From the NCBI GenBank assembly GCA_029552945.1, contig JAKPDD010000046.1, forward strand, positions 139,612-203,611: 64,000 bases of DNA, in the 5' to 3' direction. A program made the translations under genes and the position numbers. This stretch comes from Spirochaetota bacterium (GTDB taxonomy: Bacteria; Spirochaetota; GWB1-36-13; JAKPDD01). This document shows, piece by piece, positions 9,566 to 62,544 of this stretch; position 1 is the first letter of the stretch, and every line of letters starts with the position of its first letter. Under the pieces are notes generated by a model. The model had not been told where the DNA came from, did no database searches, and saw only the letters and a program-made list of their open reading frames with translations.

Positions 9566-11167
9566 ATGCTTTTTGTTTTTGACAAAAATTATAATCTTAT
9601 ATTTACCCAGTCTAAAGAATATAACTTTATTGAAGTATTAAGAGAGTTTGCATTATCTGATAAAAACTCTGAGACTATAAAATACGATGATAAAATTTAT
9701 TTTTTAACAAAGATCTCTGACTTAAATAATAATATTGCTATTAAAGTTGAAGATATTAGTGAAAATAAGATACCATCAGAAAAGTTGTTTAAATATTTTT
9801 TAAATGCGTTTGAACAGGCTTATGATGGGATTGTTATAACAGATGAAAATAATAATGTTATATATATAAACTCAAATTATGCAAGGTTTCTTGAAGTAAA
9901 TAAAGATGAGAGTATAGGTAAATATATAAAAGATGTTATAAAAGAGAGCAGAATACCTATAGTTTCTGAAACAAAAAAACCTGAAATTGGTTATGTTTGG
10001 GAAACAAAGGGAAAACCACTTCTTGTAAGTAGAATACCTCTTTTTGATAACGGCAGGTTTATAGGGGTTATAGGACTAATACTTTTTAGGAACTCAATAG
10101 AGGTTGCTCAATTTTTAAAAAAGATAGAGAAGATAGAAAAAGAGCTTGCATATTATAAAGAGTCTCAAAATTCAGATTGGTCAGCTAAATATGATTTTGG
10201 ATTTATAAAAACAAGAAGTAAGGAGGTTATTGGGATAATTGAAAGAGCAAAGAAGATTGCAGTAACTAATTCAAACGTTATTATAACTGGGGAGAGTGGG
10301 ACAGGAAAAGAGATTATTGCTCATGCAATACACCTGGCTAGTCCAAGGAGTAATAAACCTTTTGTAAGAATAAACTGTAGTGCTATTCCTGAAGAGCTTT
10401 TTGAATCAGAATTTTTTGGTTATGAAAAGGGTGCTTTTACAGGTGCAAAAGACTTAAAACAAGGAAAGTTTGAAATTGCAAACAGTGGTACTCTATTTCT
10501 TGATGAGATAGGAGACCTTCCTTTAAAAATGCAGGCAAAACTTCTTAGAGTTATCCAGGAAGGAGAAATTGAAAGAGTAGGCGGGACTAAACCTATTAGT
10601 GTTGATGTAAGGATAATTGCTGCAACTAATAAAAACCTTAAAGAACTTATTGAAAGAGGTTTGTTCAGAGAAGACCTTTATTATAGACTATCAGTTTTTC
10701 AAATTAATATGATACCTTTAAGAGAGAGGGTTGAAGATATAAGACTTTTATTTGATTATTTTTTAAAAGAATACATGGATAATATAGGATTCTGCGATAT
10801 AGCAGTTGATGAAGAGGTTTATAATATACTTGAAAAATATTCATGGCCAGGTAATGTTAGAGAATTGAAAAATGTAGTTGAAACTGTAAGTGTATCTCTT
10901 GAAGGATATAAGATAGGGCTTAAAGATATACCAGGTTATATTTTAAACTTTGAACTTAGTAAAAATGTAAAAGATTTAGATAAAAATTATTATAATCGTT
11001 ATAATAATATAAAGGAATATAAAACATCTATATTTGAGCTTGAAAAAAAATTGATAATAGATGCTTTGAATAAAGCTAACGGGAACAAGAAAAAAGCTGC
11101 CAAACTTCTTGGAATAGCAAGGAGCTTGTTATACAAAAAGATAAAAGACTTTGGAATTGAATTATGA
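9566..11167 (+). CDS. Sigma-54-dependent transcriptional activator with N-terminal PAS-like sensor, AAA+ domain and C-terminal HTH
   Basis: 533 aa; Walker [15 protein letters not shown] motif (YEKGAFTGA), arginine finger region, C-terminal Fis-like HTH; no receiver domain. Confidence 0.9.
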   Translation: MLFVFDKNYNLIFTQSKEYNFIEVLREFALSDKNSETIKYDDKIYFLTKISDLNNNIAIKVEDISENKIPSEKLFKYFLNAFEQAYDGIVITDENNNVIYINSNYARFLEVNKDESIGKYIKDVIKESRIPIVSETKKPEIGYVWETKGKPLLVSRIPLFDNGRFIGVIGLILFRNSIEVAQFLKKIEKIEKELAYYKESQNSDWSAKYDFGFIKTRSKEVIGIIERAKKIAVTNSNVIITGESGTGKEIIAHAIHLASPRSNKPFVRINCSAIPEELFESEFFGYEKGAFTGAKDLKQGKFEIANSGTLFLDEIGDLPLKMQAKLLRVIQEGEIERVGGTKPISVDVRIIAATNKNLKELIERGLFREDLYYRLSVFQINMIPLRERVEDIRLLFDYFLKEYMDNIGFCDIAVDEEVYNILEKYSWPGNVRELKNVVETVSVSLEGYKIGLKDIPGYILNFELSKNVKDLDKNYYNRYNNIKEYKTSIFELEKKLIIDALNKANGNKKKAAKLLGIARSLLYKKIKDFGIEL

Positions 11168-19697: not shown

Positions 19698-20618
19698 ATG
19701 AAAAAGATTGAAAAAATATCAACTGTTTTTATGTTCATAGGTTTTTTTATGATATTAACAATATTTATCCTTTTAGGTAAACAAAAGAAAATACTATATT
19801 CTAAAATTAACTTTTATACAATTATAAACACAGTAAAGGATGTAAACTCAGGACAGGATATACTATTGTTAGGCCCTGATACCCCTATTGGTAAGGTAAC
19901 AGGCTTTTCTGTAACTAAAGAGAATAAAGTTAAGGTTGAATTTTTTATATATAGTGAGTTTATAGATAAAATTAGAGAGGATTCGGCAATAGTTTTTATT
20001 CCACCTGCTTTGGGTTTTTTAGGGGGCATTACTATAAAAATGGTGCCAGGTACAGAGTATTATGCGATAAAAAAGGAGGGGGATGTAATACCATCAAATC
20101 ATATGTATGAAGGTGAATTCTTGCTTACATTAAGGGGAGTAAAAGGGAGTGATGATAAAATACCACTCCTTGATAAAGTTGGGCCATTACTTGAAAATAT
20201 TACCTCTGTTTTAGACCCAAAAGGGCCTTTTATGAGAAACTTGACTAATCTTACTTATTATCTTAGTATTTTTTCTATGCAATTAAGTCAGGGCGGTCTA
20301 TTTTCTGTTATTGGAAGTAATACAATAAAGACAAATATTGAAAGAATGATGGCTCAGATAAACTCTATATTAGCAACAAGTGATACTATTATGGCAAATG
20401 ATGTAAGAAACTCATTAGCAAGGGTGAACTTACTTCTAAATAATATAAAAACTTTAACAGATACAATAAATTATAATACTCCAAGGACAATGTCACAAAT
20501 AAATCTTATTCTATTTAGGCTTGAAAGAATGATTGCAAACCTTGAAAAAAGCCCACTATTTGGTGCAACTGGAACAAGAAAAACAGAAAAAAAACAGGAT
20601 ATTTTCATTGGAGAATAA
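19698..20618 (+). CDS. MCE/MlaD-like membrane-anchored protein
   Basis: 306 aa; N-terminal TM helix, MCE-like beta region, helical C-terminus; assignment by pattern only. Confidence 0.4.
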   Translation: MKKIEKISTVFMFIGFFMILTIFILLGKQKKILYSKINFYTIINTVKDVNSGQDILLLGPDTPIGKVTGFSVTKENKVKVEFFIYSEFIDKIREDSAIVFIPPALGFLGGITIKMVPGTEYYAIKKEGDVIPSNHMYEGEFLLTLRGVKGSDDKIPLLDKVGPLLENITSVLDPKGPFMRNLTNLTYYLSIFSMQLSQGGLFSVIGSNTIKTNIERMMAQINSILATSDTIMANDVRNSLARVNLLLNNIKTLTDTINYNTPRTMSQINLILFRLERMIANLEKSPLFGATGTRKTEKKQDIFIGE

Positions 20619-21963
20619 AGATAATAGAGGTACCATACTTGTTGTTGATGATGATTTAAGTGTAAGAGAGTTAATAAAGAATTTTCTTGAGAAAAACTCT
20701 TATAGAGTTTTAATTTCTGAAAACTGGATAAAAGCTGAACCTCTTATCTTAAAAAATAAGATTGATATTATCCTTTTAGATATTAATCTCCCATTTAAGA
20801 GTGGAATTGAAGTATTAAAAGAGAACAAAGATAGGTTTTTGGATACAAAAGTTATAATTTTTTCAGGCAAAAATGATATTGAACTTGCTGTTGAGGCTAT
20901 AAAGCTTGGTGCATTTGATTATGTTCAGAAGACAGACTCTATTGAAAAGATATTAAAAGTTATAGATAATGCTTTGAAGCTTAAAGTTCTTGAGGAAGAA
21001 AATAAGATTTTGAAAAAGAATTTAGCTCCTTTGAAATATATCAAAGGTATATCAAAGTTTTCTGAAGAGATAGATAAACTTATAAAAACAGCAGCCAGAA
21101 CTGATGCAACCGTACTTATTACCGGTGAAAATGGGACAGGAAAACAGGTAGTAGCAGAGACTATTCATAGTATGTCTTTAAGAAAACATGGGCCGTTTAT
21201 TGACATAAACTGTGCTGCAATACCTGAAACCTTACTTGAGAGTGAACTATTCGGGTATAAAAAAGGTGCTTTTACTGGAGCATATCAGGATACAAAAGGT
21301 AAGTTTGAGGCAGCATCAGGTGGTACAATATTTTTAGATGAGATAAGTGAAATACCAATAAGTTTACAGGCAAAGTTGTTAAAGGTTATTGAAAATAAAG
21401 AGTTTACTCCCTTAGGCTCAACACAAGTAAAAAAGCTTAATGCAAGAATAATAGCAGCTACTAATAAGAATCTAGAGGAGGAAATTTCAAATGGTAAATT
21501 CAGACAGGATCTTTTTTATAGATTAAATGTTATAAATATAAGTCTTTTGCCTTTAAGGGAAAGAAGAGATGATATACCTATATTACTTGAAAGGTTTATA
21601 AATAGTTCTGGTAAAGATATAAAATTAAGTAAGGATGCAATACAAATACTTATAGAATATGATTGGCCAGGTAATATTAGAGAGCTTAAAAACTTTGTTG
21701 AAAGGTGTACAGTCATGTCAGAGTCTGAACTAATAACCAAAGATGATGTTATAAAGTTTTTAAACCTCCGTAAAAATAATATTTTTCTTTCAATTCCAAA
21801 TTGTCATAATATAATGCCTTTAAAAGAGTTTCTAGAATGTAAAGAAAAAGAATATCTTGAGTTTATTGTATCAAGATATAAATATAAAAAAGAGATTGCT
21901 AGAATACTTAATATAGAAAGGACTGCTCTTTATAGAAAACTAAAAAAATATAATATCCAATAA
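20608..21963 (+). CDS. Sigma-54-dependent response regulator (receiver, AAA+, HTH; NtrC family)
   Basis: ORF track starts at 20533; a TTG at 20608 with RBS AGGA gives MENKDNRGTILVVDDD, a typical receiver start; GENGTGKQ, GAFTGA, C-terminal HTH. Confidence 0.85.
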   Translation: MENKDNRGTILVVDDDLSVRELIKNFLEKNSYRVLISENWIKAEPLILKNKIDIILLDINLPFKSGIEVLKENKDRFLDTKVIIFSGKNDIELAVEAIKLGAFDYVQKTDSIEKILKVIDNALKLKVLEEENKILKKNLAPLKYIKGISKFSEEIDKLIKTAARTDATVLITGENGTGKQVVAETIHSMSLRKHGPFIDINCAAIPETLLESELFGYKKGAFTGAYQDTKGKFEAASGGTIFLDEISEIPISLQAKLLKVIENKEFTPLGSTQVKKLNARIIAATNKNLEEEISNGKFRQDLFYRLNVINISLLPLRERRDDIPILLERFINSSGKDIKLSKDAIQILIEYDWPGNIRELKNFVERCTVMSESELITKDDVIKFLNLRKNNIFLSIPNCHNIMPLKEFLECKEKEYLEFIVSRYKYKKEIARILNIERTALYRKLKKYNIQ

Positions 21964-24137: not shown

Positions 24138-24629
24138 CTATTTTCTTTGCTCAATATCTTTTTCTATCTTTTTCACGAAATTATATACCTTTTCTTCATT
24201 TTCCCATGCACCTGTTACCATTATTTTACCATTGTTAATAGGCATTTTTATGATTGGTGTTGTTATAACATCTCCATCAAATATTATAGTAACTTTTTTA
24301 TCAATGTTATTTGTTGTTACTTCTTTTAATATTTTAGTACCTTGTTCGTCAAACTCTATTATAAGGTCATATTTTTTTACAAGTCCTGATGTTAAGCTGA
24401 TTAGTTTTATATTATCGCCAGTTATGAAAGGTTTTTTTTCATAACACTCTTTTTGACCATTTTTTTCTAATATAAAAGTATTGCTACTACAATTACTTTC
24501 AAGATGGATTGTAACTGGTATAATAGCTTTTTTTGGTTTTTCTTTTGGTTTTGCGTTTGAGGTACATGATTGCATTTCTATTGAGAAAATAATAAATAAC
24601 AAAAATACTATTTTTATTTTATTATTCAT
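24138..24629 (-). CDS. Putative lipoprotein co-transcribed with fliEFG
   Basis: 163 aa; N-terminal signal with Cys; begins 15 nt after the fliG stop; no FliH-like features. Confidence 0.4.
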   Translation of the reverse strand: MNNKIKIVFLLFIIFSIEMQSCTSNAKPKEKPKKAIIPVTIHLESNCSSNTFILEKNGQKECYEKKPFITGDNIKLISLTSGLVKKYDLIIEFDEQGTKILKEVTTNNIDKKVTIIFDGDVITTPIIKMPINNGKIMVTGAWENEEKVYNFVKKIEKDIEQRK

Positions 24630-24644
24630 AATAAAATTCCTATT

Positions 24645-25679
24645 TTAAACTATTATTTCATCTTCGCCAGATCTTGCAACAACTACTTCTCCAGTTTCTT
24701 CCAATTTTCTTATTATACCAACTATTTTCTGTTGGGCTTCTTCAACTTCTTTCATTCTAAGTGGTCCCATATATTCCATATCTTCTTTTAGTGTTTGAGC
24801 TGCTCTTTTACTCATGTTTCTAAATATTTTTTCTTGTACTTCTGGGTCAACAGCTTTTAAAGCTTTTGCAAGGTCTTGGTGGTCAACCTCTCTTAATACT
24901 CTCTGTATCGATCTATCATCAAGAATTACTATATCTTCGAATACAAACATTTTCTTTTTGATTTCTTCTGCAAGATCAGGCTCATCCTCCTCCAATGCTT
25001 CCATTATGGACTTTTCAGTAGATCTATCAACATTATTAAGTATTTCAACTATTGTGTCTATACCACCTGCCATTGTAAAGTCTTCACTTGCTATTGTTGA
25101 TATCTTTCTTTCAAGTACTCTTTCAACCTCTCTTAGTGTATCTGGTGATGTTCTATCCATTGTTGCAATTCTTTTTGCTACATTTGCCCTTTTTTCTGGC
25201 TCAATGTTACTTAAAATTTGAGCTGCTTTTTTAGGTTCAAGGTATGATAGTATTAAAGCTATTGTCTGCGGGTGCTCCTGTTGAATAAAGTTTGATAAGT
25301 GTGCTGGGTCTGCTCTTCTTACAAAGTCAAAAGGTCTTACCTGTAGTGATGAGGTAAGTTTATTTATAATATCTATTGCTTTTTGAGTACCAACTGCTTT
25401 TTCCAATACCTCTCTTGCATAATCTATACCACCTGATGATATAAACTCCTGAGCCATCATTAATTCTTGAAACTCAGATAATACTTTTTCCTTTTCAGAT
25501 GGATCTATTTTATCAAGTCTTGCAATTTCAAAAGTAAGTTGCTCTATTTCCTCTTCTTTTAAGTGTTTGAATATATGAGATGATACTTCAGGGCCTACAG
25601 TTACAATAAAAATTGCAGCTTTTGATTTTCCAGTAAGTTGCCTTTTCCCTGGTTTTTTTTGTTCAACTGCTTGTGACAT
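24645..25679 (-). CDS. fliG: Flagellar motor switch protein FliG
   Basis: 344 aa; FliG middle and C-terminal motor domain conserved. Confidence 0.95.
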   Translation of the reverse strand: MSQAVEQKKPGKRQLTGKSKAAIFIVTVGPEVSSHIFKHLKEEEIEQLTFEIARLDKIDPSEKEKVLSEFQELMMAQEFISSGGIDYAREVLEKAVGTQKAIDIINKLTSSLQVRPFDFVRRADPAHLSNFIQQEHPQTIALILSYLEPKKAAQILSNIEPEKRANVAKRIATMDRTSPDTLREVERVLERKISTIASEDFTMAGGIDTIVEILNNVDRSTEKSIMEALEEDEPDLAEEIKKKMFVFEDIVILDDRSIQRVLREVDHQDLAKALKAVDPEVQEKIFRNMSKRAAQTLKEDMEYMGPLRMKEVEEAQQKIVGIIRKLEETGEVVVARSGEDEIIV

Positions 25680-25697
25680 TTTTTACCTCCTTATTGT

Positions 25698-27404
25698 TTA
25701 TTCTTCACTTAACCATGTTCTTAATAGTTTAGCAACATCTTCTGGTTTTTCTTTTGCAAGTTTAATAGCATTATCTTGTAATTCAAGTCTTGCTCTCTCT
25801 TCAGGTGATAGTTCAGCACCTACCGATTCCTGTTCCGCAGCTTTTAGTGCAGCAAATCTTAATGCTTCCTGTTGTTTTATAAGCTCCTCTTCTCTTAATC
25901 TTCTTCTTCTTGCCATCTCTCTTTCTATTGCTTTGTATACTATTGATATTACAAATAAACTTATCAACCCTATTATAACTGCCATTATTGTTTTTCTCAT
26001 TTTTTCAGCTTTTCTTATCTCCTCATCCTCTTTTTCAAACTCTTTTGTTCTGTCAAATTGAATTGAACTTACTGCAACCTTATCTCCTCTACCTTCATTG
26101 AATCCTATATATGCTTTAACACTCTCTTCAACTTTTTTAACTATTATGTCCTCTACTGGTATAAACTTTCTTTTTATTTTCCCATTTTCTATAATAATAT
26201 CTCCCTCTTTATCCCTCTCTTTTTCCCATAGACCATCAAGAAATACTGTAACAGTCATATTTTTTATATCATATGGGGCCTTTCTTATTTCCTGTTCTGA
26301 CCTGCTAAACTCTTTATTTTCAATATCCTCCTGTTTCTCATAAACATTGTATCTATCCATTTTTTCCTTAAGCCCAGCTGGTACCTGGTCCTCTATTCCA
26401 GCAGGACCTTCTGGAATATAACCCTGACCTTTAAATGTTTCTTTTGTACTTTTTTTACTTACTGTAAGTGAATCCACAACTACACTATCATCATAAGGTG
26501 TTTCAGGGTTGTCCGGTTTTATTATAACTGGTTTTAAAAGATTCTCTTTCATTTTAACAACATCCCAATTTAACTCAAGATTAAGTTTTATGTCAAATCT
26601 GTCTGATGTAAAGACTCTCTCAAGTAGTTTTTTAAGTTCATTATAATAATGCATTCTAAGTTTTTCTTTTATTTTTATCTGTTCTTTTGCAAGTCTTATA
26701 TTTTCTTCTTCGTCTGTCTCAGTTAATTTATCAGTTAATACATCACCCTGATTATCAAGTATTACTATATTTTCAGGTGTTAACATATCAACACCTTTTG
26801 CAATAAGGTCTCTTAAACCTTTTATTTTCTTTTTGTTTGTGGTTATATCACTACCTGGGGATGGGGTTATAACTACTGAGGCAGTTAGAGGAAAATTATT
26901 AAGATCATCTTTAAAATATTTTTCTTCACCAAAAGATATAACTACATCGGCTGATTCTATTTCGTCTAATTTTTCTAAATGTTGCTTTATACTTGCAGTT
27001 ATTGCTCTTCTTACATTTATTTTTCTTTCAAAGTCTGTAGTAGTAAAGGGTTGATTATCAAATAATTCCCATGACTTTATTCCCTGAGGTATTATACCTT
27101 CAAGTCCAAGTTCTGTTCTTGCTTTTGCTGCAAGCTCTTTATCCTTAACAAATATCTGATTATCAATAGTTTCAAATTCTATATTCATACCTTTTAATGC
27201 TTTTTGGATCCTTTCTAAGTCTTTTTCACTTATTTTATAGTTTATACCATATAGTGGATATTTACCAGATGATGTTGAAGATACAGATATTACCATGAAT
27301 AGTATAATTATTGCTAATATTATACTACCTACAATTATTTTTTGAGTAAGATTTAATTTCCCAAGTGCTTCTTTTAATTTTTGTATAATCTCCTTTGGAT
27401 TCAT
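25698..27404 (-). CDS. fliF: Flagellar M-ring protein FliF
   Basis: 568 aa; N-terminal TM helix, periplasmic ring domains, C-terminal TM helix plus charged FliG-binding tail. Confidence 0.95.
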   Translation of the reverse strand: MNPKEIIQKLKEALGKLNLTQKIIVGSIILAIIILFMVISVSSTSSGKYPLYGINYKISEKDLERIQKALKGMNIEFETIDNQIFVKDKELAAKARTELGLEGIIPQGIKSWELFDNQPFTTTDFERKINVRRAITASIKQHLEKLDEIESADVVISFGEEKYFKDDLNNFPLTASVVITPSPGSDITTNKKKIKGLRDLIAKGVDMLTPENIVILDNQGDVLTDKLTETDEEENIRLAKEQIKIKEKLRMHYYNELKKLLERVFTSDRFDIKLNLELNWDVVKMKENLLKPVIIKPDNPETPYDDSVVVDSLTVSKKSTKETFKGQGYIPEGPAGIEDQVPAGLKEKMDRYNVYEKQEDIENKEFSRSEQEIRKAPYDIKNMTVTVFLDGLWEKERDKEGDIIIENGKIKRKFIPVEDIIVKKVEESVKAYIGFNEGRGDKVAVSSIQFDRTKEFEKEDEEIRKAEKMRKTIMAVIIGLISLFVISIVYKAIEREMARRRRLREEELIKQQEALRFAALKAAEQESVGAELSPEERARLELQDNAIKLAKEKPEDVAKLLRTWLSEE

Positions 27405-27586
27405 TATAATGCCCCCTCCCTAATATTGAAAATAAAATTATATACATTTTAATTTTTTTCTTTAATTTAAGTATAACAAAAATTAAAATAGTAATCAAAA
27501 AATATATTAACTATATTTTTAAATTTTAAAATTTTTATTATAGAATTAAAAATACTAAAATAAAATATTATTGATGTTAAATCTAA

Positions 27587-27610
27587 GAATATACCAATTG
27601 TGGTATATTC
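27587..27610. promoter_or_regulatory. 24-bp inverted repeat GAATATACCA-ATTG-TGGTATATTC between fliE and fliF
   Basis: Perfect 10-bp arms; 27 nt downstream of the fliE stop on the minus strand. Confidence 0.4.
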
Positions 27611-27636
27611 TAAAAATTCTAAATTAAAAATTTATG

Positions 27637-27963
27637 TTATCTTAGATTTTGAAGTTCTTTAAACCCATCAACAAGTCTTGTAATTACAGACTTCGCGAAT
27701 GATAAAGCAAGTTCAGCTTTTGTTTGTGCAATAGATACTTCATGAGGATTGACACTTTCAGGATCTGTTACCATTTTAACCTGTAGTTGTTCAGCGTTTA
27801 TCTGTAGGTCATTAAGATTTGAAAAAGCATTATTTAGTGCTTCACCGAATGAACCTACAACATTATCAGGTTTTCTGGTATATAGATTATCACTTATGTG
27901 TTTGTTATTGTTTATTTTTAGATTCACATCATAAGGTTTAAGATATGGATTATAGACTCTCAT
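27637..27963 (-). CDS. fliE: Flagellar hook-basal body protein FliE
   Basis: 108 aa; FGEALNNA and C-terminal helix match the FliE pattern; upstream of fliF. Confidence 0.75.
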   Translation of the reverse strand: MRVYNPYLKPYDVNLKINNNKHISDNLYTRKPDNVVGSFGEALNNAFSNLNDLQINAEQLQVKMVTDPESVNPHEVSIAQTKAELALSFAKSVITRLVDGFKELQNLR

Positions 27964-28139
27964 TTTCCCTCCCTCTTGATTTAAGAAAAGTAATTTAAAT
28001 ATAATATTTCGACAACATTCAAATTTTAATTATTTAATTTTTATATCTTTTTATTAATTTTTTAAATCTTTTTGTTTTTTTTATTTTTTAATGTTTAAAT
28101 TAATTGAATACTTTTTTATTTATCTTTTAGGAGTTTTTT

Positions 28140-31100
28140 ATGGAAAATTATTTAGGATTATATGATCTTTTTTGCCCTAATTGTCACGGAATAAACTCTG
28201 ATAACAGAAATATACACAAATATCCATGCAGTTTATGTCTTGAAAAGTATGAAGAAAATAATAACAATAATAAGGATTACGTTGATTATGTATATCAAAT
28301 GTTGGTTGAAAATAAAAGTTTAAAAGATTATAAGGATATAAAAGACATTAAAGATAATTATAATAGATATAGAAAATTTTTTAAGAAGCTTATACTTGCT
28401 GAGCCATGGAGTATTCAGAGGTCATGGTTTAAGAGGGTATTAAAAAATAAGAGTTTTACTGCTTTAGCACCAACAGGAATTGGTAAAACAACATTCGGTA
28501 TTATTACAGCATTATATTATGCAGTTTACGAAAAAAAGAGATCACTTATAATTCTTCCAAATACAAGCTTGTTGCTTAATATAAAAGCTAAAATTGAGGA
28601 ATACTTAAATAAAATTAATAAAAGGCTAAATATACTATTTTATTCATCTTCTTTTATCAATACACCTTTAAAGAAAAAAGAGTTTTTTAAATTGCTTGAT
28701 AAAAACAAGTTTGATGTACTTGTTATTACTAATAATTTTCTTTCACGTAACTTTAAATCTGTTGAAAATAAGTTTTTTGACTTTGTATTTGCTGATGATA
28801 CTGATTCACTTTTAAGAACATCAAAAAATATAGAATATGTTTTAAAACTTATAGGCTTTTCAGATGATGATATTAAATTGGGTTATGAATATGTAAAGTC
28901 ATCATTTGTTTTTAGTAAAAAGTCAGGTGATAATGAGTTTTTAATCAATCATATTTCTCTTAAAAGACAACTTGAATCTTTAAGTATAAATAAGAAAATT
29001 GGTATACTTGTTTTATCTACTGCTACTAATAAAGCAAAAGGTATAAGAGTAAAGTTATTTAAAGCTTTATTATCTTTTGATATTGGTGAAAGGGCAAAGT
29101 CTGGCTCAAACGTTGTTGACCTTTATGATAGCTTTTCTATTGATAATCTTAGAAAGTATATTAAATTGCTTGGTAGTGGTGGAATTATATTTGTGCCTAT
29201 TTATAAAGGGCTTGAGTATGCCAATTATATTTTTGATTCTTTAAAAGATGAATTTATAGTAAAGGTTATTTCATCGGATAATGTAAAAAATATTATTGAA
29301 GAGTTTTCTGAAGGTAAAATAGATATTATAATTGGGGTTGCTTCATCATACGGTCTTCTTGTAAGGGGGATAGACCTTCCTGAAATTATACGATATGCAA
29401 TTTTTGTAGGGGTACCTTCTTATAAGTTTAAAGTTGATTTTTCAGGTGATAGTATTAATTCCTTTCAGCTTATAAGATTATTGGGTGCATTATCTTATGT
29501 TACTGAAGGAGAAGATAAATTAAAGATAGAAAGACAGTTAAAAACTTTAAAAAAGAATTATTTTAATACAAAAGTTGTAGAATATTCACTATTACTTGCA
29601 AAAGATTATATTAAAAGAAATGATATTGTTGAACTTTTGAAAAATACAAACGAGGTTATCTTTAAAGAGGATAAAGATGGTCAATATTTTCTTGTACCAG
29701 ATGTACCTACCTATATACAGGCTTCTGGAAGGACTTCAAGGTTGAGTATTGATGGTTTTACTAAAGGTCTTTCCATAATACTGGAAGATGATAGGAGGCT
29801 TATATCATTTTTAGAAAAGAGAATAAAGTGGCTTGAAGATAGGAGTATTAAAAATTTTAATGATGTTGATATAAGTAAAATAATCTCTCAAATTGATAAA
29901 GATAGAGAAAAAATAAAAATCTTGAAAGAACATAATAAAATAAAAGTTATTAAAGATAAAACATTTACAGCACTTATGATTGTTGAGTCTCCTACTAAAG
30001 CAAATTTAATAGCTAATCTAATAGGTAAGCCTACAACAAGGTATTTAAAATCAATGAATGTATATGAGGTTTCCTTAGGTAGTATGACTCTTATAATTGG
30101 TTCAATAATGGGACATATTTATGATATAACTACTGAAAATTATGGTTTTTATGGGGTAGATGTAGAGAATAATAGATATATTCCAAAATATCTGACTATA
30201 AAGGTTTGTAAAAAGTGTAAAAAGCAGTTTACATCTTATAATTCCTGCCCTTTGTGTGGTTCAGATGAGTTTTATGATAAAAAGGACATAATAATTGATC
30301 TTATAGAGGTCTCAAAAGAGGTTGATACTGTATTTATATCGACTGACCCTGATAGTGAAGGAGAGAAGATAGGATGGGATATCTATTCTTTATTATCGCC
30401 TTATGTTTCAAAAATAAAGAGGGTTGTTTTTCATGAGATAACTAAGAGGGGAATTCTTGAAGGATTCAAAAATATTGGTTTAATAAACCAATCTCTGGTA
30501 AAAGCTCAAATATTAAGAAGAATTCAGGATAGATGGATAGGTTTTAAGTTTTCCAGTGAATTAAAAGACTTTTTTGATGAATATAATATTTCTGCAGGTA
30601 GGGTCCAAACTCCAGTTTTAGGTTATATTATTGATAGAGTAGAGTATAATAAAAATAATAAAAGAAAATATTATAGAATAAAAACTGAGTTTTTTTCGGT
30701 TGATGTTCCAAAGGATGATATAAAAAATATAAAAAAAATAGATACTATTTTAATTGAGGATTCAAAGTATAAAAAGGAAAAAATAGCTCCTATGCCACCA
30801 TTTACGACTGATAGCCTGCTATCAAGTGTAAATAGGGTATTAAAACTGTCAGTTTCAGAAGCTATTAGTATTGCTCAAGACCTTTTTGAAAATGGTCTTA
30901 TAACATATCATAGAACAGACTCTATTCATGTTTCAGATTATGGTAAGAGCCTTGCATATGATTATATAAATGAAAAATTTAATAAAGATGTAATATATAC
31001 AAGGTCATGGGGTGAGGAAGGAACACACGAATGTATAAGGCCGACAAGAGGGCTTGATGTTAAAGAGTTGAGAGAAATGATATATGAAGGAGACCTTTTT

Positions 31101-31667
31101 GTTACTAAGAACATGACTCAGAAACATTTTTCTGTTTATGATTTAATATTTAAAAGGTTTATAGCTTCTCAGATGAGAGATGTAGTTGTTAAAAAGCAGG
31201 AACTAGATGTAAAAATAGATTCTTATTCTACCACTATTTCTTTAAATGTTGATATATATAAAGATGGTTGGAACCTTGTAAGTCCTATTAGTGTTGTTAA
31301 ACCTGTAAAGAAAAAGAGTATAAAAATAGATTCTAAAGAAAAGTTTGTAAAACCTGATAAACCACTATTTGACCAGGCTAGTGTAATAGAGATAATGAAA
31401 GAAAGGGGACTTGGTAGACCTTCAACATATAGCCAGATAATATCGACTTTATTATCAAGGGGTTATATTATTGAGGGTAAGTATAATAAACTTATTCCCA
31501 CTAAAAAGGGTGTTAGTGTATATAAATATCTTATTGAGAAATATAAAAACATTTTTTCTGAAGAGAGAACAAGGGCATTAGAAGAATTAATGAAAGAGAT
31601 TGAAAATGGAAGAAAAGATTACAAAGAAATTTTATCAGATATTTATAATGAAATAAAAACAAACTAG
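28140..31667 (+). CDS. rgy: Reverse gyrase (helicase-like domain fused to type IA topoisomerase)
   Basis: 1175 aa; N-terminal zinc finger CPNCHG...C..C, helicase motif I APTGIGKTTFG after IQRSWFKRV, TOPRIM LMIVESPTKA, catalytic-Tyr region LITYHRTDS. Confidence 0.9.
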   Translation: MENYLGLYDLFCPNCHGINSDNRNIHKYPCSLCLEKYEENNNNNKDYVDYVYQMLVENKSLKDYKDIKDIKDNYNRYRKFFKKLILAEPWSIQRSWFKRVLKNKSFTALAPTGIGKTTFGIITALYYAVYEKKRSLIILPNTSLLLNIKAKIEEYLNKINKRLNILFYSSSFINTPLKKKEFFKLLDKNKFDVLVITNNFLSRNFKSVENKFFDFVFADDTDSLLRTSKNIEYVLKLIGFSDDDIKLGYEYVKSSFVFSKKSGDNEFLINHISLKRQLESLSINKKIGILVLSTATNKAKGIRVKLFKALLSFDIGERAKSGSNVVDLYDSFSIDNLRKYIKLLGSGGIIFVPIYKGLEYANYIFDSLKDEFIVKVISSDNVKNIIEEFSEGKIDIIIGVASSYGLLVRGIDLPEIIRYAIFVGVPSYKFKVDFSGDSINSFQLIRLLGALSYVTEGEDKLKIERQLKTLKKNYFNTKVVEYSLLLAKDYIKRNDIVELLKNTNEVIFKEDKDGQYFLVPDVPTYIQASGRTSRLSIDGFTKGLSIILEDDRRLISFLEKRIKWLEDRSIKNFNDVDISKIISQIDKDREKIKILKEHNKIKVIKDKTFTALMIVESPTKANLIANLIGKPTTRYLKSMNVYEVSLGSMTLIIGSIMGHIYDITTENYGFYGVDVENNRYIPKYLTIKVCKKCKKQFTSYNSCPLCGSDEFYDKKDIIIDLIEVSKEVDTVFISTDPDSEGEKIGWDIYSLLSPYVSKIKRVVFHEITKRGILEGFKNIGLINQSLVKAQILRRIQDRWIGFKFSSELKDFFDEYNISAGRVQTPVLGYIIDRVEYNKNNKRKYYRIKTEFFSVDVPKDDIKNIKKIDTILIEDSKYKKEKIAPMPPFTTDSLLSSVNRVLKLSVSEAISIAQDLFENGLITYHRTDSIHVSDYGKSLAYDYINEKFNKDVIYTRSWGEEGTHECIRPTRGLDVKELREMIYEGDLFVTKNMTQKHFSVYDLIFKRFIASQMRDVVVKKQELDVKIDSYSTTISLNVDIYKDGWNLVSPISVVKPVKKKSIKIDSKEKFVKPDKPLFDQASVIEIMKERGLGRPSTYSQIISTLLSRGYIIEGKYNKLIPTKKGVSVYKYLIEKYKNIFSEERTRALEELMKEIENGRKDYKEILSDIYNEIKTN

Positions 31668-31680
31668 AGTATTGTTTTGT

Positions 31681-32133
31681 ATGAAAAAAAAGATAAAAGC
31701 CGGGAATTATATATATTATTACTACTATGACAATTTGAAAAGGTTAGTTTTTATAAATGTGTGTCAGGGAAAAATTTTTAAAAAAAAGTATGGAGATTAT
31801 GAGTTTATATGGGAGTCTAATCTCTTAAAAGCTCAGGTAAGTAAAATAGAGGGACTGGGAATTACTGAAAGGATTATGTATTTTTATGATAGTTTTAATA
31901 GACTTATAAAAAAAGAGTATTATAACAAAGAGATTTTAAGATATACAGTGATTTTGAGTTATAAAGATAATGAAAATATCCCATATTTTATGGATATAAA
32001 AAGGATGAGTATGGAGTTTTTTAAAACTGAAAATACAAATTGTATAATGGAAATGATAAATATTGTTGGAAAAGACTTTGAAGGGAGTTTTTACCTATTA
32101 GACCTTATTGATAAATATAAACAGAGTTCTTAA
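31681..32133 (+). CDS. Hypothetical Tyr-rich protein with YD-repeat-like motifs
   Basis: ORF track starts at TTG 31672; ATG at 31681; motifs YYYDNLKRL and FYDSFNRLI; 4 nt after the rgy stop. Confidence 0.3.
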   Translation: MKKKIKAGNYIYYYYYDNLKRLVFINVCQGKIFKKKYGDYEFIWESNLLKAQVSKIEGLGITERIMYFYDSFNRLIKKEYYNKEILRYTVILSYKDNENIPYFMDIKRMSMEFFKTENTNCIMEMINIVGKDFEGSFYLLDLIDKYKQSS

Positions 32134-34414: not shown

Positions 34415-35848
34415 ATGGGGAGTTTAAAGGAATATGTTGAATTGCTTATAATAGATGATGAAGAGATTACAGGACTTACTATAAGAGATTATTTTAGAGC
34501 AATAAGTGGAGAAAGCGTATCTTATAATGTTTCATATTTTTCTGACTCAAAAGAGGGTTTTGAATATTTCAAAAATAATGATATTGATGTTGTTATACTT
34601 GATATAATGTTGAAAGAAGGTGATGGGATGGAACTTTTAAAGAAAATGAAGTCTTATAAACCTGAAACTGAGATAATTATTCTTACTGGCTATGGTAGTG
34701 GTGATAAAAGTATTACTGCACTAAGGTTGGGTGCTTTTGATTTTTTAAGTAAACCTTTTGGACTTACTTCACTTGAAAAAATAATACTTAAGGCTTACAG
34801 TAAAAAAATAATGGCAACTGAAAACAGGATAACAAGCATAATAGAGAATAAAATTTCTGAACTTGAAAAGTCTATTGGCAAAGAGGAGAGTTTTATTGGC
34901 AATGATTCAAAAATAAAAGAGATAATAGGGCTTGTATCAGAGATATCTAAGACAGATTGTAATGTACTTATTCAGGGAGAAAGTGGAACAGGTAAAGAAC
35001 TTATAGCAAGACTTATACATAAGAGTAGCCTTAGGAGTCAAGAACTTTTTTTCCCTATAAACTGTGGTGCAATACCTGAGAACCTTCTTGAGTCCGAACT
35101 TTTTGGTTATGAGAAAGGTGCATTTACTGGTGCTACTAACAGAAAACTTGGTCTATTTGAAGTTGCAACAAAAGGTACAATATTTCTTGATGAAATAGGG
35201 GACCTTCCTATAACATTCCAGGTTAAATTACTTAGAGTTCTTGAAAGAGGTGAGTTTAATAGGGTTGGTGGAACAAAAATACTTAAAACTGAAGCAAGAA
35301 TAATATCAGCAACAAATAAGGACCTTAAAAAAGAGGTTGAAGAGGGTCTTTTTAGAAGGGATCTTTATTACAGGCTTAATGTTATAACAATTACCCTTCC
35401 ACCTTTAAGAGAGAGGAAGGCAGATATACCTTTACTTATTGAATATTTTATTAAGAAAAATGAGAGAAATACTAACAGAAAAATTGAAATATCAAAAGAG
35501 GCCATGCAAATTTTAATTAATTATAATTGGCCAGGAAATGTAAGAGAACTTCAAAATGTTGTAGATAGAATAATAATATTAACTAATAATAATGTTGTGA
35601 CGCCAGAAACAGTTACAAGAGCTCTATCTATGCACGATAACTCTTCTCAATTAATTTCAATAGACAATAAAGATTATGTTCAACTTGTTAGAAAAGACGA
35701 ACTTATAACTCTTGAAGAATTGGAGAAGAGGTATATATCATATTTATATAAAAAAACAGGGGCTAATAAAAGTAAGACTGCCTATCTACTTGGTATATCT
35801 GAGAGAACACTTTATAGAAAGATGAAGCAATATGATATTGATTTTTAG
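34415..35848 (+). CDS. Sigma-54-dependent response regulator (NtrC family)
   Basis: 477 aa; receiver (LLIIDDEE, VVILDIML), [15 protein letters not shown]-terminal HTH. Confidence 0.9.
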   Translation: MGSLKEYVELLIIDDEEITGLTIRDYFRAISGESVSYNVSYFSDSKEGFEYFKNNDIDVVILDIMLKEGDGMELLKKMKSYKPETEIIILTGYGSGDKSITALRLGAFDFLSKPFGLTSLEKIILKAYSKKIMATENRITSIIENKISELEKSIGKEESFIGNDSKIKEIIGLVSEISKTDCNVLIQGESGTGKELIARLIHKSSLRSQELFFPINCGAIPENLLESELFGYEKGAFTGATNRKLGLFEVATKGTIFLDEIGDLPITFQVKLLRVLERGEFNRVGGTKILKTEARIISATNKDLKKEVEEGLFRRDLYYRLNVITITLPPLRERKADIPLLIEYFIKKNERNTNRKIEISKEAMQILINYNWPGNVRELQNVVDRIIILTNNNVVTPETVTRALSMHDNSSQLISIDNKDYVQLVRKDELITLEELEKRYISYLYKKTGANKSKTAYLLGISERTLYRKMKQYDIDF

Positions 35849-44300: not shown

Positions 44301-45295
44301 TGAGAAGTAACTTTGCTTTCTATTTTTTTAATTCTCCTTATGAGGATCCTGTTCTTTATGTGGAGCAGCTTAATTCAAGAGATAACCTTGTTTTTGATCT
44401 TGGTGATGTATCAAAAGTACCTAATTCTCTACTTATGAGAATAAAGTGGGTTTTTATATCCCATGCCCATATAGACCATTTTTGTGGTTTTGTAAAGTTT
44501 TTAAGGACAATCTTAAAAATTGTTGGCAAAGAGGTATATGTCTTTGGACCTGAAGGTATTGCTGATAATGTGGAAGGGGTCTTAAAATCATTTACTTGGA
44601 ATCTTATAGATAATTATAACATTAAGTTTTATGTAAAAGAGATAGGGAGCAGAATAAAAACATACTTTTTTTCTTCATCTGAAAAGTTTTCAAAAGAACT
44701 TATTTCTGAGAGTGATTTTACAGATTTAATTCTGGATGAAGAAAGTTTTCTAGTTAAAACCTCTATAATGGACCATAAAATACCTGTGTTAGGTTTTAGA
44801 CTTGAAGAAAAAAATAGATATGCTGTTGATAAAGAAAGACTTTTAGCATTTGAACTTAAGCCTGGTAAATGGCTTACTGATGTAAAAAAAAAATTAATTA
44901 AAGATGAGATTGATGATTATATCAAAGTTGATAATAAGGTTTTTAAAATAAGAGAACTTGTCGAGAGCAAAATACTTTTTCTCAAAAAAGCTCCCTCTCA
45001 TGCTTATATTACTGATATTGGTTTTACAAAAGATAATTTTATAAAGGCCTGTTCTCTGTCAAAAGATGTTAAAAACCTTTTTATAGAGACTCATTTTACC
45101 CATAAAGAGATTGATATGGCAAGAAAAACATATCATCTTACTGCTTATCAGGCTGGTATAATTGCAGGTGCATCAAGAGCTGAGAGGGTAAGAATATTTC
45201 ATTTTTCTCAAAGATATATTAAGAATAAAATAGGAGAGAAAGAACTTTATTATGAACTTAATAAAGCAAGGTCTTTATTTGGTTACAATTTTTAA
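44300..45295 (+). CDS. Metallo-beta-lactamase fold hydrolase (RNase Z-like)
   Basis: 331 aa; HxHxDH motif (ISHAHIDHFCGF); TAATG overlap with the hydE stop. Confidence 0.55.
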   Translation: MRSNFAFYFFNSPYEDPVLYVEQLNSRDNLVFDLGDVSKVPNSLLMRIKWVFISHAHIDHFCGFVKFLRTILKIVGKEVYVFGPEGIADNVEGVLKSFTWNLIDNYNIKFYVKEIGSRIKTYFFSSSEKFSKELISESDFTDLILDEESFLVKTSIMDHKIPVLGFRLEEKNRYAVDKERLLAFELKPGKWLTDVKKKLIKDEIDDYIKVDNKVFKIRELVESKILFLKKAPSHAYITDIGFTKDNFIKACSLSKDVKNLFIETHFTHKEIDMARKTYHLTAYQAGIIAGASRAERVRIFHFSQRYIKNKIGEKELYYELNKARSLFGYNF

Positions 45296-46701
45296 ACTTC
45301 CTCATTTATTTCTTCTTCATTTTCATCAGAATTATCGTCAGAAGAACTTGTACCAAAATATTCATACAACTTTCTGTGAAGTGTTTTTCTGCCAATATTC
45401 AGTATTTTAGCTGCTTTAGACTTATTGTTTTTGACAAACTTCAGTGTTGACAAAATATATATTTTTTCAACTTCACTTAGCGGGAGACCAAGATTTATTT
45501 TTACAAAGTCTTTCTCAATTATCTCACTTTTTATATGAGGAGGAATATCTTTTTCTGTTATTTCATTTCCTCTCGCAAGTACAACCATACCTTCAATCAA
45601 GTTTCTAAGTTCTCTTATATTTCCTGGCCATGAATATGATTCTAATATAGCCATAGCTTTTGGCGATATAGTAAGCATTGGCTTATTGTTTATCTGACAA
45701 AACTCTTTTATAAAAGCATTAACAAGTAATGGAATGTCATCTTTTCTTTCTCTTAAGGGTGGCATTTTTATTGATACAACTTTTAATCTATAATATAGAT
45801 CTTCTCTGAAGTTTTTTTTCTGTACTTCTTGTAGTAGATCTCTATTTGTAGCTGTTATTACTCTTACATCAACCTTTATTGTTTTTGTTCCACCAACTCT
45901 TTCAAACTCTTTTTCCTGCAATACTCTTAACAATTTTACCTGAATAATTGGAGAAATCTCGCCTATTTCATCTAAAAATAGTGTCCCACCATCAGCAAGT
46001 TCAAACCTTCCCTTTTTCATTGCTATTGCACCTGTAAACGCACCTTTTTCATGACCAAATAGCTCTGATTCGAGAAGGTTTTCGTTAAGGGCTGCACAGT
46101 GTAGTTTTACAAGTGGTTTATCTGCTCTATCACTTAACCTGTGAATAGCATTTGCTATTAACTCTTTTCCTGTTCCACTTTCACCTTCTATAAGTACAGT
46201 TGCTTTTGTTGGTGCAACCTGCTTTACAATATCCATTACGCTTTTAAGTGATGATGAACTTCCTATTATATTTTCAATTCCATATTTTTCATTAAGTTGT
46301 TTTTTAAGTTCTATGTTTTCAAGTATTATATTTTTTTCTTTTATTGCTCTTTCTATTGTTAGTATTAGTTTATCAATATCAACTGGTTTTGTAAAAAAGT
46401 CATATGCACCCTTTTTCATTGATTCGACAGCAGTTTCAACATTACCATGGCCTGTAAGCATTATTACTTTTATATATGGTTTAATGTTATTTATCATTTC
46501 AAGTAATTTTGTACCACTTATTACTGGCATTTTTATGTCTGTTATTACTAAATCAAAATCATTATTTTTTATAAACTCAAAAGCTTCTTCACCATTTGAT
46601 GCTGTTTCAATATTATATCCTTCAAGTTCAAGGGTTTTTTTAAGACCTTCTCTTATATTTTTTTCATCATCAACTATAAGTATATTTCCTGTTGTGTTCA
46701 T
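45292..46701 (-). CDS. Sigma-54-dependent response regulator (NtrC family)
   Basis: 469 aa; receiver ([16 protein letters not shown]), [15 protein letters not shown]-terminal HTH, acidic tail. Confidence 0.9.
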
Positions 46702-62497: not shown

Positions 62498-62544
62498 ATG
62501 ATTTTTATAAATTTTAATGATTATGAAGTTGTAAAGAGGTAATT

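What the first reader, a model, noticed from the sequence alone, without database searches (positions are those of the whole stretch)
28140..31667. Reverse gyrase in a very AT-rich, flagellated genome
Reverse gyrase is established as a marker of thermophiles and hyperthermophiles. It is encoded here divergently from fliE, in a genome that also encodes LPS export, Bcd/Etf and HydE, implying a thermophilic anaerobic diderm with low G+C. The intergenic region shared with fliE (27964-28139) shows no obvious promoter motif.
Basis: partly seen in the sequence, partly recalled or inferred. Interest (0 to 1): 0.45.

Follow-up and report, generated by a model that had tools for sequence, protein, structure and literature searches.

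The report
Reverse gyrase native to AT-rich spirochaetes
The gene is a complete, apparently functional reverse gyrase that has been inherited within an uncultured, very AT-rich spirochaete lineage; it is ordinary as an enzyme, but one close relative carrying the same gene arrangement comes from a shallow, non-thermal aquifer, so the gene alone does not prove its host is a heat-lover.

Summary
Window 28140-31667 (+) encodes a 1175-aa reverse gyrase (RG): TIGR01054 scores 1197 bits (cutoff 472), it aligns end to end with T. maritima and A. fulgidus RG, and the AlphaFold model matches 7FSF/4DDT (TM 0.86/0.92). Both Cys4 zinc fingers, the helicase motifs, the Toprim acidic residues and the catalytic Tyr923 are present.

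The exact protein is already in NCBI as 'reverse gyrase [Spirochaetota bacterium]'. The host is an anaerobic, diderm, flagellated spirochaete, and its nearest named relatives are Brevinematia. The gene looks native: its codon usage matches the window, dN/dS is about 0.12, and the divergent fliG-fliF-fliE/rgy arrangement is kept in relatives with 73% and 53% identical RGs.

Thermophily is plausible but unproven. Proteome composition suggests about 55-65 C, against 39-41 C for related control loci, but AT bias inflates that figure. tRNA stems have only about 70% G-C pairs. The 53% syntenic relative comes from a 5-m-deep aquifer at Rifle, Colorado. This clade's RGs have the least 'thermophilic' composition of the 122 compared.

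Verdict: a new member of a known enzyme family, in a phylum that the papers I could search do not list as carrying RG. Interest is moderate.

The parts
28140..31667 (+). rgy, reverse gyrase coding sequence (1175 aa plus stop)
   Evidence: ORF found. TIGR01054 scores 1196.6 bits over model positions 5-1170 of 1172. PDB 4ddt, 7fsf and 1gku match at E 1e-221 to 1e-213. The structure model has pLDDT 87.5 and matches 7fsf at TM 0.86/0.92.
28173..28238 (+). N-terminal zinc finger: Cys12, Cys15, Cys30, Cys33
   Evidence: Motif coordinates. The four Cys are invariant in the clade and at least 90% conserved across 43 reverse gyrases. The Pfam zf_Rg hit is weak, 16.1 bits against a cutoff of 25.5.
28467..28490 (+). 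Helicase motif I / Walker A, APTGIGKT (aa 110-117)
   Evidence: A110, P111, T112, G113, G115 and K116 are invariant in all 43 reverse gyrases aligned.
28794..28805 (+). Helicase motif II, DDTD (aa 219-222); most other reverse gyrases have DDVD
   Evidence: D219, D220 and D222 are invariant. V221T is a clade-specific substitution.
29016..29027 (+). Helicase motif III region, S-TAT (aa 293-296)
   Evidence: A295 is invariant and T296 is at least 90% conserved.
29421..29696 (+). Latch-like insertion in the second RecA domain (about aa 428-519)
   Evidence: Position inferred from the HMMER alignment to T. maritima reverse gyrase together with the latch boundaries of that enzyme as I recall them. 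The model shows a helical insert at H441-502. The boundaries are approximate.
29718..29741 (+). Helicase motif VI, QASGRTSR (aa 527-534)
   Evidence: Q527, G530, R531, S533 and R534 are invariant.
29973..30440 (+). Toprim domain (aa 612-767), with Glu616 in VESPTKA and the DPD motif in TDPDSEGE (aa 735-742)
   Evidence: Pfam PF01751 at E 3e-14. Motifs located and their conservation shown.
30207..30257 (+). Second zinc finger, inside Toprim: Cys690, Cys693, Cys703, Cys706
   Evidence: The sequence CKKCKKQFTSYNSCPLC is seen. C690, C693, C703 and C706 are invariant in the clade. C690 and C703 are at least 90% conserved family-wide.
30483..31634 (+). Topoisomerase IA core (aa 782-1165); the catalytic Tyr923 lies in ITYHRTDS, at nt 30906-30908
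   Evidence: Pfam PF01131 at E 2.6e-77. Tyr923 aligns with T. maritima Tyr851, the residue mutated in 7fsf, and is invariant.
27964..28139 (.). 176-bp AT-rich spacer shared by the divergent fliE and rgy. It holds the rgy Shine-Dalgarno AGGAG at 28129-28133, the fliE Shine-Dalgarno GGAGGG on the - strand just upstream of fliE, and a sigma-70-like candidate at 27976-28005 (+)
   Evidence: The fliE-proximal part is conserved in L007 and partly in L005. The promoter call is not statistically distinguishable from background.
24645..27963 (-). fliE (27637-27963), fliF (25698-27404) and fliG (24645-25679). This three-gene flagellar unit is divergent from rgy, and the junction is conserved in relatives
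   Evidence: Pfam annotations. The same arrangement is found in L007 and in L005/L006.
31672..32133 (+). Small conserved ORF (150-153 aa) immediately downstream of rgy, possibly co-transcribed, with no known domain
   Evidence: no Pfam or NCBIfam hit. It is 66% identical and in the same position in L007, L019 and L020. It is absent downstream of rgy in the Rifle relative.

Best explanation
This is a functional reverse gyrase: one polypeptide in which an N-terminal SF2 helicase-like ATPase (with a zinc finger and a latch insertion) drives a C-terminal type IA topoisomerase to introduce positive supercoils and re-anneal or protect DNA. The gene is a long-standing resident of an uncultured, very AT-rich (28% G+C), anaerobic, periplasmically flagellated spirochaete lineage related to the class Brevinematia. 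It has been inherited vertically, next to fliE, at least since that lineage split from the GWB1_36_13 lineage.

The host of this window is most likely a moderate thermophile growing at roughly 50-65 C. There the enzyme would guard easily melted AT-rich DNA against local unwinding and damage.

Shown: the gene's identity, the integrity of its catalytic motifs, its fold, its native codon usage, the conserved synteny and purifying selection. Inferred: its enzymatic activity, its physiological role and the host's growth temperature.
For: Identity and fold. TIGR01054 scores 1197 bits against a cutoff of 472, full length. The protein aligns end to end with solved reverse gyrases. The model has pLDDT 87.5 and matches 7fsf/4ddt at TM 0.86/0.92. 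Every residue invariant across 43 reverse gyrases is kept, including the Walker A motif, DDxD, QxxGRxSR, Glu616, DPD and Tyr923.

Native gene, not a recent import. GC3 is 0.180 against a window mean of 0.178 +/- 0.025, and the RSCU correlation is 0.93. The exact protein occurs on 19 contigs from independent assemblies with the same neighbours. The fliG-fliF-fliE/rgy junction is conserved in L007 (RG 72% identical) and in L005/L006/L010 (53%). In the NJ tree the four-sequence clade has 100% bootstrap and is sister, at 72%, to reverse gyrases from two GTDB 'Brevinematia' MAGs. dN/dS is about 0.12.

Host. NCBI names the source 'Spirochaetota bacterium'. The nearest named FliF relatives are Brevinematales/Brevinematia. 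FlaA sheath genes lie in the relative's locus. HydE, Bcd/Etf and LptB/A/C are present.

Temperature. IVYWREL is 0.427 over 18.8 kaa, about 65 C, and L007 gives the same. A Brevinema sp. locus gives 39 C and the rgy-less L014 locus gives 41 C.
Against: No sampling temperature could be recovered for any metagenome that carries the window's contig. The IVYWREL excess over the relatives lies mainly in Ile (11.7% against 9.0%) and Tyr, both favoured by AT-rich codons. The four tRNAs have only about 70% G-C stem pairs, and the tRNA-Thr T-stem has 2 G-C pairs and 2 G-U pairs. The syntenic relative GWB1_36_13 comes from a 5-m-deep alluvial aquifer. The clade's reverse gyrases have the lowest IVYWREL values of the 122 compared. 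They also carry 22 substitutions at positions that are at least 85% conserved elsewhere, including R323, which is 100% Arg in the other 39. Positive supercoiling activity has not been tested.
Confidence: 0.6

Rival explanations
1. The enzyme is functional, but the lineage, or part of it, is not thermophilic. Reverse gyrase would then be kept by selection in mesophilic or cold-aquifer spirochaetes for a role not tied to constant heat. Candidates are stabilising very AT-rich DNA against unwinding, DNA-damage protection or renaturation, or survival of transient stress.
For: The 53% relative has the same fliE/rgy junction and an intact gene, and it comes from groundwater pumped from 5 m depth at Rifle. 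Along the Rifle-L008 path pN is 0.22 while synonymous sites are saturated, so the gene is constrained there too. Local proteome estimates for L005 and L008 are only 43-49 C. The clade holds the three lowest IVYWREL values of 122 reverse gyrases. The window's tRNA stems resemble those of mesophiles. All RG-bearing loci in this group are AT-rich, at 28-39% G+C. The lowest-temperature RG carriers listed in PMC6878951 grow at 40-60 C.
Against: The window and L007 give 64-69 C by composition, well above the 39-41 C of the related control loci. The field's survey finds no mesophile with the gene. The Rifle temperature is not stated in the paper and rests on general knowledge of shallow aquifers. A MAG's presence in cold water does not by itself show growth there.
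Confidence: 0.27
2. The gene is a relic that has lost positive-supercoiling activity. It would now act only as a relaxing type IA topoisomerase or helicase, or be on its way to decay after the lineage left hot habitats.
For: It evolves faster than its neighbours: dN/dS is 0.12 against 0.025-0.07 for FliG, FliF and SerRS. The clade has the lowest retention of family-conserved positions, 87-88%. There are substitutions in motif Ia (PT to PN), in motif II (DDVD to DDTD) and at R323.
Against: There are no frameshifts or stops in any of the independent lineages. Every catalytic and zinc-binding residue is kept across sequences only 53% identical. dN/dS is far below 1. The retention value is only slightly below that of accepted reverse gyrases such as Persephonella's, at 0.90. 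The full-length fold is predicted with confidence.
Confidence: 0.08
3. The gene was recently acquired from a thermophilic archaeon or bacterium, or it sits here through mis-assembly or mis-binning.
For: Outside the clade, the next-best hits are about 40% identical and many are archaeal, for example Sulfolobales and Thermoprotei. Bacterial reverse gyrases are generally thought to spread by horizontal transfer (PMC6878951).
Against: Composition and codon usage are identical to the flanks. The same junction appears on 19 contigs from different assemblers and archives. Synteny is conserved in three divergent genomes. The nearest reverse gyrases all come from spirochaete or Brevinematia MAGs.
Confidence: 0.03

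Closest known systems
Thermotoga maritima reverse gyrase (PDB 4DDT/4DDU/7FSF)
   Same: The architecture is the same end to end: zinc finger, two RecA-like domains with a latch insertion, Toprim with a second zinc finger, and the topo IA core with the catalytic Tyr. E is 1e-221, identity about 35%, and the model matches at TM 0.86/0.92.
   Different: The window protein is about 70 residues longer. Relative to the T. maritima enzyme it has insertions after the first zinc finger, in the first RecA domain (about aa 262-282) and in the latch region. Motif II is DDTD and motif Ia is PN. Its composition is much less 'thermophilic': IVYWREL is 0.433 against a family median of 0.477.
Reverse gyrases of moderate thermophiles (Nautilia profundicola 40 C; Caminibacter, Lebetimonas and Nitratiruptor 55 C; Thermodesulfovibrio aggregans 60 C)
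   Same: These are bacterial carriers at the low end of the temperature range (PMC6878951). From memory, not tested here, they also have AT-rich genomes, as this lineage does.
   Different: Four of the five are isolates from hydrothermal vent walls, and none is a spirochaete. I did not compare their sequences directly. In this lineage the gene is embedded in a conserved flagellar-gene neighbourhood, and one relative comes from a shallow aquifer.
Reverse gyrase of 'Spirochaetes bacterium GWB1_36_13' (OHD10217.1) and of two GTDB 'Brevinematia bacterium' MAGs (KM4344-23, 21I_069.bin.51)
   Same: All belong to the same clade: bootstrap is 100% with GWB1_36_13 and 72% with the Brevinematia pair. 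GWB1_36_13 shares the fliE/rgy junction. All the host loci are AT-rich.
   Different: Identity is 53% and 39-40% respectively. The Brevinematia MAG loci and L008 do not have fliE next to rgy.
Bacterial topoisomerase I (TopA)
   Same: It shares the Toprim domain and topo IA core (PF01751, PF01131; E 1e-50 to T. maritima TopA 2gai).
   Different: TIGR01051 scores 283 bits, below its cutoff of 456. TopA lacks the N-terminal helicase module present here.

Membership tests
Reverse gyrase (TIGR01054 rgy) | Curated equivalog model matched above its trusted cutoff over its full length | tested here: met
   1196.6 bits against a cutoff of 471.7; protein residues 7-1173 match model positions 5-1170 of 1172.
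Reverse gyrase (TIGR01054 rgy) | One polypeptide joining an N-terminal SF2 helicase-like domain to a C-terminal type IA topoisomerase | tested here: met
   Pfam finds DEAD/ResIII at aa 91-235, Toprim at 612-767 and Topoisom_bac at 782-1165. The full-length structural match to 7fsf, 4ddt and 1gku has TM 0.76-0.92.
Reverse gyrase (TIGR01054 rgy) | Helicase ATPase motifs: Walker A GKT, motif II DDxD, motif III (S/T)AT, motif VI QxxGRxxR | tested here: met
   APTGIGKT at 110-117, DDTD at 219-222, TAT at 294-296 and QASGRTSR at 527-534. The key residues are invariant in 43 reverse gyrases.
Reverse gyrase (TIGR01054 rgy) | Two Cys4 zinc fingers, one N-terminal and one inside Toprim | tested here: met
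   C12/C15/C30/C33 and C690/C693/C703/C706 are all present and invariant in the clade. The Pfam zf_Rg model itself scores below its threshold, 16.1 against 25.5 bits.
Reverse gyrase (TIGR01054 rgy) | Latch insertion in the second RecA domain | tested here: inconclusive
   An insertion of about 90 aa (roughly 428-519) aligns with the T. maritima latch region, with gaps, and is modelled as a helical insert. Its boundaries and function were not established.
Reverse gyrase (TIGR01054 rgy) | Topo IA catalytic machinery: Toprim Glu and DxD, and the active-site Tyr | tested here: met
   E616, D736/D738 and Y923 in ITYHRTDS are present. Y923 aligns with T. maritima Y851.
Reverse gyrase (TIGR01054 rgy) | ATP-dependent positive supercoiling of DNA | not testable with these tools
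   This needs a biochemical assay of the purified protein.
Reverse gyrase (ecological hallmark, not a molecular criterion) | The host is a thermophile or hyperthermophile | tested here: inconclusive
   IVYWREL gives about 65 C, against 39-41 C in related control loci. But tRNA stems have about 70% G-C pairs, the composition is AT-biased, no sample temperature is available, and a syntenic relative comes from the shallow Rifle aquifer.
Bacterial topoisomerase I (TIGR01051 topA_bact) | Equivalog model matched above its cutoff | tested here: not met
   282.6 bits against a cutoff of 456.4, covering only the C-terminal half.

The most novel reading that the evidence does not exclude
A vertically inherited reverse gyrase lineage is maintained by purifying selection in spirochaetes that include organisms growing at mesophilic or lower temperatures, as the Rifle aquifer relative suggests. 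If so, reverse gyrase is not a strict thermophily marker. In very AT-rich genomes it would serve a role independent of constant heat, such as protection against DNA unwinding or damage. Temperature inferences for ancestors and MAGs that rest on the gene's presence alone would then need caution.
Probability: 0.3. Interest if true: 0.7.

Novelty: new member of a known kind. Interest (0 to 1): 0.42.

Why it matters
Presence or absence of reverse gyrase is widely used as a one-gene thermometer for uncultured organisms and for reconstructed ancestors such as LUCA, the bacterial ancestor and the Asgard ancestor. The stated rule is that the gene is never found in mesophiles (PMC6878951, PMC12395588).

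This locus adds Spirochaetota, specifically relatives of Brevinematia, to the phyla that carry the gene. No paper I could search makes that connection. It also shows an old, syntenic, selectively maintained lineage whose members have the least heat-adapted reverse gyrase compositions seen here. One member was recovered from a shallow aquifer.

If growth temperatures confirm a non-thermophilic carrier, the marker's lower limit (40 C in Nautilia) would fall. The link between reverse gyrase and AT-rich DNA would then become directly testable. If instead every host turns out to live at 50-65 C, the finding is simply a routine extension of the gene's known distribution.

Tried and rejected
1. The first GTDB scan, using the single protein, found no relative because its peptide patterns were too specific. 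The second scan, using a clade alignment, returned only 4 loci and did not return the window's own genome.

2. I searched the paper library for every sample, contig and MAG accession: SRR5007227, ERZ795045, IMG 3300025605 and 3300025589, GWB1_36_13, SRR31897269 and six Ga numbers. There were no hits, so the sampling temperatures stay unknown. I have an unverified recollection that the Ga03083xx-Ga03084xx datasets (L019, L020) are Yellowstone hot-spring mats. I did not use it as evidence.

3. One literature search, on reverse gyrase with aquifer or digester terms, was too loosely built and returned nothing useful.

4. I considered whether the host is Exilispira thermophila or a relative, since that is a thermophilic spirochaete with a 24% G+C genome. 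I found no sequence link, so the idea stays open.

5. Promoter analysis of the fliE/rgy spacer gave candidates that cannot be told apart from the AT-rich background. I looked at sigma-28-like motifs by eye and found them unconvincing.

6. dS is saturated for every pair except window-L007, so branch-specific dN/dS for the Rifle lineage could not be computed.

7. With only four tRNAs and no rRNA in the window, the RNA-based thermometer has low power.

8. The tree is a neighbour-joining tree on Kimura-corrected distances, because no maximum-likelihood program was available. Deep nodes are unresolved, with bootstraps of 0-12%.
Full report
**Observation.** The ORF lies at exactly 28140..31667 (+) and encodes 1175 aa. 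The divergent upstream neighbour at 27637..27963 (-) is fliE, followed by fliF and fliG. The window averages 28.1% G+C.

The protein scores 1196.6 bits on NCBIfam TIGR01054 (reverse gyrase equivalog, cutoff 471.7) over essentially the whole model. The bacterial TopA model stays below its cutoff, at 283 bits against 456. Pfam sees DEAD/ResIII, Toprim and Topoisom_bac in the expected order. phmmer aligns residues 8-1174 with the solved T. maritima enzyme (E 1e-221) and with the A. fulgidus enzyme.

An AlphaFold2 model built on 43 homologues has mean pLDDT 87.5 and pTM 0.82. Its best PDB matches are the full-length reverse gyrases 7FSF, 4DDT, 8OFB and 1GKU, with TM 0.76-0.92. Topoisomerase I structures cover only the C-terminal half. 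The gene is a reverse gyrase.

**Integrity.** Both Cys4 clusters are present (C12/15/30/33 and C690/693/703/706). So are Walker A (APTGIGKT, 110-117), motif II (DDTD), motif III (TAT), motif VI (QASGRTSR), the Toprim Glu616 and DPD, and the catalytic Tyr923, which aligns with T. maritima Tyr851.

The clade does carry 22 substitutions at positions that are at least 85% conserved in other reverse gyrases. These include PT to PN in motif Ia, DDVD to DDTD in motif II, and R323 to S or G. It retains 87-88% of family-conserved positions, the lowest value in the sample, though only just below accepted enzymes such as Persephonella's at 0.90.

**Host.** The exact protein is already deposited three times in NCBI as 'MAG TPA: reverse gyrase [Spirochaetota bacterium]' (HOJ49246.1, HOM37807.1, HPQ49316.1). 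It occurs on 19 contigs from ENA, Logan and JGI assemblies with identical neighbours, which rules out a chimeric assembly.

The window's FliF is closest to unnamed MAG proteins. Among named ones it is closest to 'Brevinematales/Brevinematia bacterium' at 45-47%, then Brevinema at 40%, then Treponema and Gracilinema at 39%.

HydE is TIGR03956 at 375 bits against 254.6. LptB is TIGR04406 at 345 bits against 240, with LptA-like and LptC-like neighbours. There is an acyl-CoA dehydrogenase with EtfB and EtfA. The window also holds four sigma-54 activators and an MCP. So the host is an anaerobic, diderm, flagellated spirochaete.

**Native or acquired.** The gene's G+C (27.4%), its GC3 (0.180 against a window mean of 0.178 +/- 0.025) and its RSCU correlation with the other genes (0.93) are all typical of the window.

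The nearest reverse gyrases are P0002/P0127 at 72-73% identity and P0003 and P0130 at 53%. Everything else is 40% identical or less. The fliG-fliF-fliE/rgy junction is conserved in the 73% relative (L007, L019). It is also conserved in the 53% relative, 'Spirochaetes bacterium GWB1_36_13' (L005, L006, L010, L021), whose locus carries spirochaete FlaA sheath genes as well.

The junction is confined to this lineage. The next FliF lineage out (57% identity) has priA at that position. More distant Brevinematales keep the canonical flgB-flgC-fliE-fliF-fliG-fliH-fliI operon.

In a neighbour-joining tree of 122 reverse gyrases the four sequences form a clade with 100% bootstrap. That clade is sister, at 72%, to the reverse gyrases of two GTDB 'Brevinematia bacterium' MAGs. 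Deeper nodes are unresolved.

dN/dS between the window and L007 is about 0.12. FliG, FliF and SerRS give 0.025-0.07, and hypothetical proteins give 0.14-0.16. For the Rifle-L008 pair pN is 0.22 with synonymous sites saturated.

In summary, the gene is an old resident under purifying selection. An ancient transfer into an ancestor of this group cannot be excluded, but a recent one can.

Evidence for thermophily:
- The IVYWREL fraction of 55 window ORFs (18.8 kaa) is 0.427, about 65 C on the Zeldovich regression. The coefficients are from memory.
- L007 gives the same value.
- A Brevinema sp. locus gives 39 C and the rgy-less L014 lineage (32% G+C) gives 41 C. The measure therefore does separate lineages within this group.

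Evidence against, or for caution:
- The window's excess over its relatives is almost entirely Ile (11.7% against 9.0%) and Tyr, which AT-rich codons favour.
- The four tRNAs have about 70% G-C stem pairs, and the T-stem of tRNA-Thr has two G-C and two G-U pairs. That is unlike extreme thermophiles.
- The clade supplies the three lowest IVYWREL values among the 122 reverse gyrases. The window's enzyme ranks ninth lowest.
- No sampling temperature could be found for any carrier metagenome.

Most importantly, GWB1_36_13 was assembled from groundwater pumped from 5 m depth. The source is the shallow alluvial aquifer beside the Colorado River at Rifle, and the water was collected on serial 1.2, 0.2 and 0.1 um filters. 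The paper does not state the temperature. That such an aquifer is cool is general knowledge, not a tool result. Local composition for that genome gives about 49 C from only 7 kaa.

I conclude that a moderate thermophile at 50-65 C is the most likely host for this window. The gene's presence alone does not establish that. The lineage may include non-thermophiles.

**Literature.** The standard survey (PMC6878951) lists 247 species that encode the enzyme. Growth optima were available for 174 of them, 89% of which are above 65 C. The lowest is Nautilia profundicola at 40 C. The survey states that the gene is absent from mesophiles, and it does not mention spirochaetes in its main text or in the supplement held in the library.

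A 2025 paper repeats 'not in mesophiles'. No paper in the library combines 'reverse gyrase' with Brevinema*, and none of the 15 papers that hold both 'reverse gyrase' and spirochaet* mentions either term in its title. Thermophilic relatives do exist: Thermospira, Longinema, Exilispira thermophila with a 24% G+C genome, and Exilispira and Brevinema OTUs in a Yellowstone mat.

**Mechanism.** By homology, the helicase-like module binds and hydrolyses ATP and transiently unwinds duplex DNA. The latch couples this to strand passage by the topo IA module through Tyr923. The result is positive supercoiling and re-annealing or protection of DNA. This follows from established knowledge of the family and is not tested here.

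For a 28% G+C chromosome at 50-65 C, local melting is a plausible selective pressure. From memory, the known low-temperature carriers are also AT-rich, which would fit. That is a hypothesis.

**Spacer.** The 176-bp fliE/rgy spacer has good ribosome-binding sites for both genes and a TTGATT-N18-TATAAT candidate at 27976-28005. Promoter-like matches are only modestly enriched over shuffles, 51 against 34.7 +/- 5.5. Nothing firm can be said about regulation.

**Verdict.** As an enzyme this is an ordinary reverse gyrase, and it is already annotated as such in public databases. Three points lift it above routine. It is in a phylum that the searchable literature does not list as a carrier. It has been inherited vertically in a conserved flagellar-gene neighbourhood. 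And at least one syntenic relative comes from a non-thermal aquifer.

I rate it a new member of a known kind, with interest 0.42. I give 0.3 to the more novel reading, that this lineage breaks the rule 'never in mesophiles'.

Noticed in passing
window 31672-32133 (+); L007 13522-13983; L019 6507-6959: A 150-153-aa ORF starts 4-14 nt after the rgy stop. It is 66% identical in the 73% relative and absent from the Rifle relative. It has no Pfam or NCBIfam hit. Its sequence has YD/RHS-repeat-like motifs (YYYYYD..G.L; YFYD..NRLIKKEYY) and atypical codon usage (RSCU r = 0.53). It may be co-transcribed with rgy.
   Followed up: partly
window 24138-27963 (-), compared with L017 and L018: In this lineage fliE-fliF-fliG stands alone and is followed by a small SecDF-P1-head-like protein. 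flgB/flgC are not upstream and fliH/fliI are not downstream. More distant Brevinematales keep the canonical flgB-flgC-fliE-fliF-fliG-fliH-fliI cluster.
   Followed up: partly
window 9566-11167, 20533-21963, 34415-35848 (+) and 45292-46701 (-): Four sigma-54 enhancer-binding proteins lie within 64 kb. Three have receiver domains and one has a PAS domain. This is a high density of sigma-54-dependent regulators.
   Followed up: no
L014 (JGI 3300071169, Ga0611977_00003; contig about 1.04 Mb): The nearest lineage without the fliE/rgy junction (FliF 57% identical) has priA divergent from fliE. It sits on a contig of about 1 Mb, possibly a near-complete small genome. Its local composition looks mesophilic (41 C). 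I could not check whether it has rgy elsewhere.
   Followed up: no
window 28140-31667 (protein positions 141, 221, 323 and others): There are 22 clade-specific substitutions at positions at least 85% conserved in other reverse gyrases. They include T141N (motif Ia), V221T (motif II) and R323S/G, where Arg is found in all 39 non-clade sequences.
   Followed up: partly
window 50479-53991 (+): A 1170-aa protein has a C-terminal SpoIIE/PP2C phosphatase domain and a TPR, and a long N-terminal region with no annotation.
   Followed up: no
window 13-615 (+): An ankyrin-repeat protein, unusual in a free-living bacterium. An ankyrin-rich protein also appears near the fliE cluster in a 48% FliF relative (L016).
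   Followed up: no
window 60426-63813, compared with L007 14343-17725: The block hyp233-hyp457-serS lies 28 kb downstream of rgy in the window, but directly after rgy and the small ORF in the 73% relative. The two genomes therefore differ by a rearrangement or an insertion of about 28 kb.
   Followed up: no
L011, L012, L005, L008, L007 and window: Every locus carrying a reverse gyrase in this spirochaete group is AT-rich (28-39% G+C). A Brevinematales locus with 47% G+C (L017) shows the canonical flagellar operon, and its rgy status is unknown. A possible association between the gene and low G+C was not tested genome-wide.
   Followed up: partly
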